A stretch of DNA of 64,000 nucleotides, taken from Eledone cirrhosa. Its lineage: Eukaryota. The position numbers and the translations under genes were made by a program. Under the pieces are notes generated by a model that saw only the letters and a list, made by a program, of their open reading frames with translations, had not been told where the DNA came from and made no database searches. The DNA lies in the NCBI GenBank assembly GCA_964016885.1, contig OZ024752.1:30008001-30072000 (forward strand), written 5' to 3'. Shown here in pieces: positions 21,763-45,717 of this stretch (its first letter is position 1; the number at the start of each line of letters is the position of its first letter).

Positions 21763-22340
21763 AGAAACTTAAAGACATTCACCCTATTTATTCCACCAGA
21801 AAGAATAAATGTTTAACATTATTTCGTATTTTTGTGGTAAATGTATTGAATTTGCTGACTCATAAAATCAAGATAAAAACTTTAATCGATTTACAGAAGA
21901 TTGAACGAGTAGTTATGGTGTTAGCATTTTGGCTCAAGTTCCTATCACATCATTGCGGCTCTACCGATTTATTGCAGCAAGACATGGAAAACTTCTCACT
22001 TCACTTATCTAAAAGAAGAGGAGGGTAAGAAAGATAAAGAAATGGATCTGTGAAAGAGAATCAAAATATTTGTAAATTACTGAAGAGTATGACTAAAATT
22101 GAGGAAGGGGAGGAGGTTTATCCTTATTTGATTCACTTCAATAATCATCTTCAGGCTTAATTTGTTTGCTAACCGAATTAATTCCAATGATTTCTGTTTC
22201 ATGAGTTTATATTATATGCACACACAGGTGGTAGATTGGGGAGGCAAATGACCTAATGGTAAGGGAGTTGGACTTACAATCATAATGTCCTGGGTTTAAT
22301 TCCTAAATTAGGTTGTGTGTTGTGTTCTTGAATAAAACAC

Positions 22341-22701
22341 AAAACTGTATTTCTTTGGAGATACGAAATATTTATACATATTGTATAAAGCTATGCTTGA
22401 AGCGAAATCCTATTTCTTTTTTATTATAAGTTGAGCCAACTTATGCAGCTTCATATGCAAATGAGATTAATCACCTCATTTACACAGACGAGAAAAGTAT
22501 ATATTCTCAGCTGTCTTCTAGTCCAGCAGTCGCAAGCGGTGGGAGGGACCGTCCTGACGAAGGCTAGTTAAGCCTGAAATGCATAGATGGTTGTCCCCCT
22601 TGCTTCTGCTGGACATCACCAGAGGGCGTTAGCCCTCCCGGTGTTTGCATAGCTATGGCTTCCTAAAACCGTATTTCTTTGGAGATACAAAATATTTATA
22701 C
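22341..22701 (+). mobile_element. Retrozyme-like element: 324-bp monomer with 37-bp terminal redundancy
   Basis: AAAAC(T/C)GTATTTCTTTGGAGATAC(G/A)AAATATTTATAC at 22341 and 22665; internal hammerhead; self-complementary flanks CCAGCAG..GCAAG / CTTGC..CTGCTGG. Confidence 0.82.
22547..22592 (+). ncRNA. Minimal type-I hammerhead ribozyme
   Basis: GACCGTC-CTGACGA-AGGCT agtta AGCCT-GAAAT-GC-ATA-GATGGTT; palindromic ATGCAT stem III. Confidence 0.9.
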
Positions 22702-23206
22702 TTTATTCATGTAGCTTCTGTATACTCAGCTGAAAATGAGTAGCAGCAATAGATGAGGGTTTAACCCTGCGACGGACTGGCATCATACCCATGGGGAGGT
22801 GTCTTGTACTCTCAGTCACTTTACACCATAGAAACTGGGATAATCATCGGCCTGATGAGCTTCCAAGCTTGAGATCGACTTACAGGTGGTAGAGCATCAG
22901 ACAACATAGCTCGTGGTATTTAGCTATGACTTTCTATGTTCTGAGTTTAAATGTTGCTGGGGTCAACTTTATCTTTTATCTTTCTGAGGTCAATAAAACA
23001 AAGTATTGAGGTTGATATATTTGACTCCCTCCTTCCTCCAAATTGTGCCCATGCTAGAAACAATTATATACCCCCTCCCCCCACACACATATTTATATAT
23101 CATCATCATCATCATCATCACCGTTTTACGTCAATGTTTCCATGCTAGCATGGGTTAGACAGGTTGTCCTATTGTGGGAAATGCCAAGTCAGGTGACCAT
23201 GTTTTG

Positions 23207-42102: not shown

Positions 42103-42403
42103 CAATATATATATATATATATATATATAAAAAACGAAAAATCAGTGATGCATCTGAACTCAATTTATTGTGTGTTACAATTGTTTCGCCGGCAGACAGC
42201 TCGAGACACGATCATTGTGTGGATCTGTCTGATTCTGGATCTGCAGGTTCGACGGACACGTCATATCATACTCTGCTCTGTAAGAGCATAGAGTGCTCAA
42301 CTGGCATACCACCTATGTAAGCATCTTAGCTACCATCAGACACACACACATATATATATCAATGATATTAAATAAATGGAAACTATATTTATAAAACCAT
42401 ATT

Positions 42404-42464
42404 TATTCTATTATATATATTTCAAGGGTACCAAAACTTTGGTACGCTCTCATCAGATGAAATA
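42404..42464 (-). ncRNA. Minimal type-I hammerhead ribozyme
   Basis: TATTTCAT-CTGATGA-GAGCGTACC aaagtttt GGTACCCTT-GAAAT-ATAT-ATA-ATAGAATA. Confidence 0.8.
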
Positions 42465-42575
42465 CAGAGCCTGTTTTATAAATATTGACATATCCAGGAA
42501 TGAGACCTTAACGGTTCAAGTTTTACTGTTAAGGTCTCATTCCTGGTTATGTCAATATTTATAAAACAAGCTGTG

Positions 42576-42636
42576 TATTTTATCTGATGAGAGTGTACCA
42601 AAGTTTTGGTACCCTTGAAATATATATAATAGAATA
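42576..42636 (+). ncRNA. Minimal type-I hammerhead ribozyme
   Basis: TATTTTAT-CTGATGA-GAGTGTACC aaagtttt GGTACCCTT-GAAAT-ATAT-ATA-ATAGAATA. Confidence 0.85.
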
Positions 42637-42697
42637 AATATGGTTTTATAAATACAGTTTCTATTTATTTAATATCATTGTATATATATATATATAT

Positions 42698-42930
42698 ATG
42701 AATGAAAAATAAAGCGAGAAACTGGACTGTCCATCATACCCAATTCGCTCTGTCCCAATAACTTATTTTAGTTATTGCTCGCACTGATTTTGAGGTATCT
42801 GGTCTTTAATGTGAAGAAATATCGATGATAGTCAGAAGATCACTGATGATGGACAGTCCCGTTCTCGCTCTATTTTTCATTTATATGTATCACACTCGCA
42901 ACAACGCAGCACGCCATTTTTTCATTCATA
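42698..42930 (+). mobile_element. Small fold-back element with half a hammerhead
   Basis: Inverted arms 42701-42737 / 42846-42882; CTGATGA-TGGAC-A-GTCC is present but GAAA is missing. Confidence 0.55.
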
Positions 42931-45121: not shown

Positions 45122-45191
45122 TATTTTATTATGCGCATTTCGAAAACAACATCATCCTGGGACAAAAATTGTGTTCTCATCAGATAAAATA
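45122..45191 (-). ncRNA. Minimal type-I hammerhead ribozyme
   Basis: TATTTTAT-CTGATGA-GAACACAAT...GTTGTTTTC-GAAAT-GCGC-ATA-ATAAAATA; perfect 8-bp stem I, palindromic ATGCGCAT. Confidence 0.85.
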
Positions 45192-45556
45192 AGGTAACAT
45201 GATATGAGGCCTAAAAACATTTGTGAACAAGAAAGTGTCCAGTCAACATATGACAAAAATATAAGAGAAGAGAAAAAAATAGGAAAAATGAAGAAAAGGA
45301 AAAAAGAAGGAAAAAGGAAAAAAGAAATAGAAGAGAGGAAAAAGAAAGAAAGAAGGAGGAAAGAGAAAGAGAGAGAGAGAGAGAGAGAGATACTTTTGAT
45401 CGGGAGCGCTGTAAAAAATGAAAAAAATATATATATATATATATAACCCATGCTAGCGTGGAAAGTGGACGTTAAACAAGGATGATGATGATGATGATGA
45501 TATATATATATATACAATATATTAATAAATGGAAACTATATTTATAAAACCATATT

Positions 45557-45622
45557 TATTTTATTATACATATTTCAAGGGCAACCAAGGCAAATTATGG
45601 TGCGCTTTCATCAGATAAAATA
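45557..45622 (-). ncRNA. Minimal type-I hammerhead ribozyme
   Basis: TATTTTAT-CTGATGA-AAGCGCACCA...TGGTTGCCCTT-GAAAT-ATGT-ATA-ATAAAATA. Confidence 0.85.
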
Positions 45623-45717
45623 CAGATTTGTTTTACAAACAAATATTGACATGCCCGGAAAAAAGACAACCTTAATGGTTGGAGCCTCCTGGATATATAT
45701 ATATATATATATATAAT

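What the first reader, a model, noticed from the sequence alone, without database searches (positions are those of the whole stretch)
22341..22701. Cleanly delimited 324-nt retrozyme-like monomer inside a SINE
Seen: the host SINE is split at AAAACAC|TTTATT, which fixes the insert ends. The insert is one 324-nt unit plus 37 nt of terminal redundancy, has no real TSD, and carries an intact AUA hammerhead in a long GC-rich rod. Established: metazoan non-LTR retrozymes are units of a few hundred nt with type-I hammerheads that yield circRNAs. This is the best candidate here for a circRNA-derived insertion, and it is not in a TA tract.
Basis: partly seen in the sequence, partly recalled or inferred. 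Interest (0 to 1): 0.75.

Follow-up and report, generated by a model that had tools for sequence, protein, structure and literature searches.

The report
Penelope-copied hammerhead retrozyme fragment in SINE
This is one cut-short copy of an abundant non-coding repeat that carries a predicted self-cutting RNA motif and whose ends show it was likely pasted in by Penelope-type jumping-gene enzymes; it is a new family of a known kind, and nothing here shows that this copy came from a circular RNA.

Summary
In detail: a 361-nt insert (324-nt unit plus 37-nt repeat) splits a tRNA-type SINE and carries a type I hammerhead, predicted to cut after 22585. It is one of at least 2,359 candidate sites. It is not an excised monomer. 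In 99 loci, 157 of 181 arms end at two fixed sites about 45 nt apart, 5' ends are scattered, and 69 loci are inverted pairs, mostly in (TA)n. That is the Penelope (PLE) 'tail' footprint. This copy ends at the short site and is 5'-truncated after 1.1 units, which explains the redundancy. No free 5' end (0 of 45) ran into a shared upstream or coding sequence, so it is not a coding-PLE tip. Hammerhead stems covary with an older sister subfamily. A circular template is not shown: in two-armed copies, 9 of 18 template-borne variants sit in one unit position only, which favours multi-unit templates, though gene conversion is not excluded. No helper PLE was found. The scan found this architecture before in sibling families of this genome; no note matches this family's sequence.

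The parts
22240..22340 (+). 5' part of host tRNA-derived SINE (tRNA-like head 22243-22314)
   Evidence: 84% to an uninterrupted copy at 28042-27942; weak Rfam tRNA match, E 1.3, below gathering score
22341..22701 (+). Whole insert: single 5'-truncated arm, 1.11 units, ending at the family's short fixed 3' site
22341..22664 (+). One 324-nt period of the repeat (a permutation set by truncation, not by ribozyme cleavage)
   Evidence: 7 differences from the family majority, 3 of them CpG transitions and 2 a subfamily marker
22377..22381 (+). Short fixed 3'-end site S (unit 37-41), in the 5' arm and loop of a small hairpin; the insert's own 3' end is the same site one unit later (22701)
   Evidence: 83 of 181 arms end at unit 33-49; peak at 41
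22419..22428 (+). Long fixed 3'-end site L (unit 79-88); S to L is the ~45-nt PLE-type tail
   Evidence: 74 of 181 arms end at unit 73-91; (TA)n loose ends behind 22424 in contigs
22422..22496 (+). 75-nt block identical between young and old subfamily majorities, just 3' of L: two hairpins and an ATGCAAAT octamer (22455-22462); candidate RT-recruitment or promoter element (inferred)
   Evidence: a run of 75 or more in 0.15% of 20,000 permutations; hairpins in folds
22521..22614 (+). Rod extending hammerhead stem I
   Evidence: z -3.57; 92% of cells paired across 31 distinct copies
22547..22592 (+). Type I hammerhead: stem I 22547-53/22586-92, core 22554-60, stem II 22561-64/22572-75, GAAA 22576-79, 1-bp palindromic stem III, predicted cut after A22585
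   Evidence: cleavage untested
22665..22701 (+). First 37 nt of the next unit (the 'terminal redundancy'), ending at site S
   Evidence: 35 of 37 identical, both differences CpG transitions
22702..22882 (+). 3' part of host SINE
   Evidence: 73% to 27922-27756

Best explanation
The insert is a 5'-truncated copy of a high-copy, non-coding tandem repeat with a predicted type I hammerhead (a non-LTR retrozyme), likely reverse-transcribed into a DNA nick by a Penelope-like element's enzyme from an RNA longer than one unit. Shown: family, fixed 3' ends, inverted pairs, (TA)n bias, no coding sequence upstream, covarying ribozyme stems. Inferred: a PLE RT/GIY-YIG protein binds the RNA, probably at the invariant 75-nt block, nicks AT-rich DNA, and starts copying internally at site S or L. 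Two starts on the two strands give the inverted S+L pairs; one start gave this copy, which stopped after 361 nt. The weak, probably dimer-dependent ribozyme leaves many transcripts uncut or partly cut, and these multi-unit RNAs likely serve as templates at least part of the time. Some step through a single unit (a circle, or local duplication) is still needed to fix lineage variants in all units. For this copy the template form cannot be told.
For: Copy number at least 2,359 candidates, full-length hits 94-98%. 157 of 181 arms at two sites; 69 of 99 loci inverted, 39 with exactly one L and one S arm; 123 of 157 fixed ends at (TA)n. This matches the PLE tail, inverted 5'-truncated copy and two internal RT starts described in PMC8557442 and PMC11167929. 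0 of 45 free 5' ends share upstream or ORF sequence, apart from one pair sharing a flank repeat. Pure-unit arms reach 2.3-2.7 units and one array 10.3 units. Units within an insertion share non-CpG variants about 5 times more than units of different loci (6.1-6.4 vs 1.2 per kb, 52 loci). In 41 clean two-arm loci: 9 variants in all units, 9 in the same unit position of both arms only, 2 across positions, where a monomer circle predicts 1:2 (p 0.0014 per variant; p 0.02 per locus). 65 of 77 arms run through the cleavage site. Canonical short-stem-II hammerhead, unlike the long-stem-II motifs of the genome's coding PLEs.
Against: No helper PLE was identified: ends of Neptune-like, Nematis-like and Hydra-like families show no similarity above shuffles, and Naiads were not sampled. 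Position-specific sharing could come from gene conversion between inverted arms after insertion; a sister-locus search found none for L028, and the one for L016 (L282) may be chance, about one such hit expected by my rough estimate. The excess of 5' ends just past the cut site is weak (10 vs 4.6, p 0.02 for the chosen window, scan p 0.47). Only about 100 of thousands of sites were seen, all high-identity hits, so rare coding parents may be missed. Rfam does not call the ribozyme.
Confidence: 0.7

Rival explanations
1. Same family and enzyme, but the template is always a monomeric circular RNA copied by rolling reverse transcription; position-specific variants arose later by conversion between inverted arms.
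For: 9 non-CpG variants are carried by all units of an insertion; one variant is in 10 of 10 units of the long array; 65 of 77 arms cross the cut site; the circle folds well (z -6.1); circles are shown for coral, mussel and axolotl retrozymes (PMC7229834).
Against: 9 same-position-only variants vs 2 cross-position, interspersed with unshared ones rather than in clean tracts; in L016 the shared pair is a compensatory stem II change that the upstream unit lacks; the long array shows a 5-unit higher-order duplication, not a pristine rolling copy.
Confidence: 0.2
2. The unit is the pseudo-LTR of a coding PLE, and all copies seen are its truncated 3' tips.
For: All end features are those of PLEs; retrozymes and pLTRs are related in Xenopus (10.64898/2026.07.22.740005); sampling is small and biased to high identity.
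Against: 0 of 45 free 5' ends continue into shared or coding sequence; arms go round into further units; no common upstream loose end among the best-supported rows in contigs (462 rows not shown); no match of the unit to the ends of 50 GIY-YIG loci except one chance neighbour, L113; no ORF start at the S/L sites, unlike the coding Nematis-like family.
Confidence: 0.07
3. A satellite or SINE-like repeat spread by DNA-level recombination or by an ordinary LINE, with the hammerhead motif a non-functional relic.
For: No Rfam call; the young subfamily has the weaker AUA triplet and an A-U first pair of stem II; one array shows DNA-level duplication.
Against: Two fixed internal 3' ends, inverted S+L pairs, no poly(A) or consistent TSD; three stem II pairs and one stem I pair change on both sides between subfamilies (largely one evolutionary event).
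Confidence: 0.03

Closest known systems
Metazoan non-LTR retrozymes (Cervera and de la Pena 2020, PMC7229834, parts 2-4 of 6 read; review PMC7761336, passages; Li, Clavereau and Pollet 2026, 10.64898/2026.07.22.740005, parts 1-3 of 5 read)
   Same: Non-coding unit of 150-450 nt, under 50% GC, canonical type I hammerhead, tandem and dispersed copies in thousands, no LTR/PBS/PPT; 1-bp palindromic stem III as in newt and axolotl HHR_Amex1.
   Different: Transcripts, cleavage and circles untested here. The passages read propose PLE mobilisation from co-occurrence and pLTR homology; they do not describe fixed S/L ends, inverted arms or position-specific variants. No homologous pLTR was found here.
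Penelope-like elements, EN+ clades (Craig et al. 2021, PMC8557442, passages and supplement rows for Octopus; Frangieh et al. 2024, PMC11167929, parts 1-2 of 4; Cervera and de la Pena 2014, PMC4209133, parts 1-2 of 4)
   Same: Two 3' ends separated by a tail (about 45 nt here, 30-40 nt typical), inverted 5'-truncated partner, (TA)n targets, unclear TSD, hammerhead in the terminal repeat, copying through an uncut ribozyme.
   Different: No ORF; hammerhead is canonical (4-bp stem II, long stem I), not the minimal long-stem-II PLE type.
Non-autonomous Chlamys PLE derivatives such as MRC1 (PMC8557442, passage)
   Same: Non-coding, head-to-tail multicopy insertions driven by a PLE.
   Different: Those resemble their autonomous family at the 3' end and mostly lack hammerheads; here no partner similarity was found.
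Sibling families in this genome noted earlier by the scan (310, 422, 467 and 520-600 nt; AI notes)
   Same: Two-armed, fixed-end, (TA)n-anchored hammerhead repeats.
   Different: No note matches this sequence. This family is older, with short arms, and its variant pattern does not point simply to one monomer circle.

Membership tests
Non-LTR retrozyme | Non-coding unit of about 150-450 nt, GC under 50% | tested here: met
   324 nt, 42% GC; no ORF of 120 aa over it
Non-LTR retrozyme | Type I hammerhead in each unit | tested here: met
   Core intact in 143 of 185 units covering it; covariation; Rfam gives no call
Non-LTR retrozyme | Tandem and dispersed high-copy occurrence, with dimers holding two ribozymes | tested here: met
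Non-LTR retrozyme | Self-cleavage in vitro | not testable with these tools
   Bench test needed; only 1 of 9 predicted Xenopus dimers cleaved in the 2026 preprint
Non-LTR retrozyme | Expression as linear and circular monomer RNA | not testable with these tools
   No run on record as RNA was available; contigs cannot show circles
Non-LTR retrozyme | TSD, when present, longer than 4 bp | tested here: inconclusive
   None in this copy; no consistent TSD in 40 loci with a non-TA flank, one clear 9-nt case (L173)
Autonomous PLE (3' tip) | RT + GIY-YIG ORF upstream of the repeat | tested here: not met
   0 of 45 free 5' ends
PLE-mobilised element | Two fixed 3' ends with a tail | tested here: met
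   157 of 181 arms; same sites in the older subfamily
PLE-mobilised element | Inverted 5'-truncated partner and microsatellite targeting | tested here: met
   69 of 99 loci inverted; 123 of 157 fixed ends at (TA)n
PLE-mobilised element | Terminal sequence shared with an autonomous partner | tested here: inconclusive
   Not found for the Neptune-like, Nematis-like and Hydra-like families sampled; most of 10,597 GIY-YIG candidates and all Naiads unseen

The most novel reading that the evidence does not exclude
Animal retrozymes are copied by Penelope enzymes largely from uncut or partly cut multi-unit transcripts rather than from monomer circles, and a 75-nt invariant two-hairpin block just past the long start site (22422-22496) is the signal that recruits the enzyme; the two arms of each insertion record the order of units in the template, so template form can be read from the genome.
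Probability: 0.35. Interest if true: 0.62.

Novelty: new member of a known kind. Interest (0 to 1): 0.36.

Why it matters
The copy itself is an ordinary truncated insertion. The family adds genomic support for the proposed but unshown idea that Penelope enzymes move animal retrozymes. It also gives a direct test of the assumed circular template: two-armed insertions with enough age show which variants the template carried and in which unit. If the position-specific pattern holds genome-wide, the circle-only life cycle drawn for retrozymes needs revising. The invariant block is a concrete candidate for an RT-binding assay.

Tried and rejected
No RNA holder listed: four coded runs of unknown kind, one study; no statement on expression follows. 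Contigs of those runs confirmed the empty SINE site and the L end but cannot show circles. Rfam: nothing at gathering score in the window, no hammerhead at E up to 5. Helper search: GIY-YIG loci, a young Nematis-like family and a Hydra-like family; clade labels are my reading of motifs against PMC8557442, and Pfam named only L094; local alignments to their ends were within shuffle range. A GTTGAGC word past the fixed ends of both this repeat and the Hydra-like family was seen by eye and is not significant. snRNA-type promoter idea (newt satellite 2, recalled): upstream of three U2 genes there is no octamer, and the best match (14 nt, 5-6 of 200 shuffles) is absent from the old subfamily, so rejected. 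5' ends at the cut site: only 1 of 181 exactly there; cluster weak. Sister loci for position-specific variants: none for L028, one doubtful for L016. The looser triplet count (17 vs 5) counted some variants twice and included L027; one search is the stricter count and drops loci without one clean fixed-end arm per strand (41 of 101 kept). The motif at 22853 in the SINE tail lacks GAAA and was not found by the core scan. Literature: six searches found no paper describing a cephalopod retrozyme; PMC13282606 has no 'ribozyme' or 'retrozyme' in its main text. The supplement of PMC7229834 was not opened and that of the 2026 preprint is closed; either may list such repeats or insertion ends.

Full report
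Observation. The sequence is as described. A 361-nt insert at 22341-22701 splits a tRNA-type SINE whose uninterrupted relative at 28042-27756 reads through the junction; contigs of four coded runs show the same empty site. The first and last 37 nt match at 35 positions, 324 nt apart, and both differences are CpG transitions. There is no target duplication beyond a possible 2-nt AC. A type I hammerhead lies at 22547-22592 with a predicted cut after A22585, at the tip of a 94-nt rod. The unit folds far better than shuffles (z -6.97 linear; -6.1 circular). Rfam does not recognise the ribozyme.

Family. The 3.0-Gb animal genome holds at least 2,359 candidate sites, best full-length hits 94-98% identical. 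The genome is probably a cephalopod's; this is inference from PLE proteins that resemble Hydra-1_Obim by eye and from earlier notes. An older sister subfamily with a 339-nt unit gave 3,661 candidates, which may overlap the first set. I examined 99 distinct young loci: 52 picked by long queries and 47 by short queries without length bias. Of 181 arms, 83 end at unit 33-49 (site S), 74 at 73-91 (site L) and 24 elsewhere; the ranges are wide because the ends blend into (TA)n. 5' ends are scattered. 69 loci are head-to-head inverted pairs, 39 with exactly one S and one L arm, and 123 of 157 fixed ends lie at (TA)n. The old subfamily ends at the same two places. PMC8557442 describes a 30-40-bp tail at one end, an inverted 5'-truncated partner and microsatellite bias for PLEs, and PMC11167929 shows that the tail lies between two internal RT starts and that uncut RNA is the main substrate in vitro. 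The window copy is therefore a single S-primed arm that stopped after 1.11 units. Its redundancy is an accident of truncation, and 17 of 99 loci are such single S arms.

Not a coding PLE tip. Of 45 free 5' ends, none continues into a PLE ORF or a shared upstream sequence; one pair shares a flank repeat. Long arms go round into further units, up to 10.3 in one array. The ends of sampled coding families show no similarity to the unit. Their hammerheads have long stem II, the minimal PLE type of PMC4209133, while this one is canonical. Sampling covers about 100 of thousands of sites, so a rare parent is not excluded. In one locus (L153) an arm joins directly to a 5'-truncated Nematis-like ORF in the same orientation; this could be a template switch or a nested insertion, and it is a single case.

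Ribozyme. Across 31 distinct young and old copies 93% of cells pair; three stem II pairs and one stem I pair change on both sides between the subfamilies, while loop II stays the same. These changes are mostly one evolutionary event, so the shuffle counts overstate them. The old subfamily has AUC and a G-C first pair in stem II; the young one has AUA and A-U. Stem III is one pair with a palindrome, which in newt and axolotl repeats needs a dimer. The window copy has further private changes in loop II and stem I. Weak cleavage fits the fact that 65 of 77 arms run through the cut site; ligated circles fit that too.

Template. Units in one insertion share non-CpG variants about five times more often than units of different loci, so both arms come from one source sequence. 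A monomer circle predicts that template variants are in every unit and that chance doubles fall 1:2 between same-position and cross-position pairs. In 41 clean two-arm loci (of 101) I found 9 variants in all units, 9 only in the same position of both arms and 2 across positions (p 0.0014; 6 vs 2 loci, p 0.02). In L016 the shared pair is a compensatory stem II change that the upstream unit lacks. This favours multi-unit templates with unlike units for part of the family. The rival is gene conversion between inverted arms. Shared and unshared sites are interspersed, which is mildly against recent conversion. Sister searches did not settle it: none for L028, and one for L016 that could be chance. 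5' ends just past the cut site are slightly in excess, not robustly. The all-unit variants still require a single-unit step at some point. For the window copy both differences are CpG changes and say nothing.

Signal. A 75-nt block (22422-22496) just 3' of site L is identical between the two subfamily majorities, which differ at 35 of 325 columns overall (permutation p 0.0015, ignoring base-composition effects). It holds two hairpins and an octamer word. I infer an RT-recruitment role from its position; a promoter role found no support against U2 upstream regions. No helper was found among Neptune-like, Nematis-like and Hydra-like families; Naiads were not sampled.

Comparison and verdict. It works like, and meets every testable criterion of, a metazoan non-LTR retrozyme; cleavage and circular RNA were not testable. 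It is PLE-mobilised by its ends but is not a coding PLE. Six literature searches found no cephalopod retrozyme, but unseen supplements may list one. The scan has already noted the two-armed architecture in sibling families of this genome; my reading of the ends was formed before that look-up, and no note matches this sequence. New member of a known kind; interest 0.36, with the template question as the most valuable lead.

Noticed in passing
window 42300-42700 and 45180-45680: A second hammerhead-bearing PLE-end family (inverted pair at 42456/42584, another copy at 45614, a different motif at 45183), 1,776 candidates; several copies share a long AT-rich upstream region, probably a 3' UTR of a coding PLE.
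   Followed up: partly
window 29683 (minus strand): Piece of the terminal repeat, with hammerhead-like core, of the Neptune-like family in L097/L098/L100.
   Followed up: partly
window 8873 and 6972 (minus strand): Two further minimal hammerhead-like cores with CUAG palindromes.
   Followed up: no
L153:250-2134: Retrozyme arm joined directly to a 5'-truncated Nematis-like ORF in the same orientation; possible template switch that would name a helper.
   Followed up: partly
L200, L202, L204, L205: A young, abundant Nematis-like PLE with near-intact ORFs of about 1,230-1,240 aa; its two fixed ends fall inside the first codons of the ORF, as for Poseidon_Ac.
   Followed up: partly
L061:4631-7935: 10.3-unit array with a 5-unit higher-order duplication and one variant fixed in 10 of 10 units.
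   Followed up: partly
L027: Both arms share five or more variants in one unit, two of which break hammerhead stem II, while the upstream unit lacks them.
   Followed up: partly
run X4 laid on 22341-22701: In this smaller run of unknown kind one variant with a 9-nt deletion in stem II/loop II dominates the ribozyme region.
   Followed up: no
L287-L304 (G000:C3 307.35-307.45 Mb): Tandem array of about 40 U2 snRNA genes at 2.2-kb spacing, with no octamer in 400 nt upstream.
   Followed up: no
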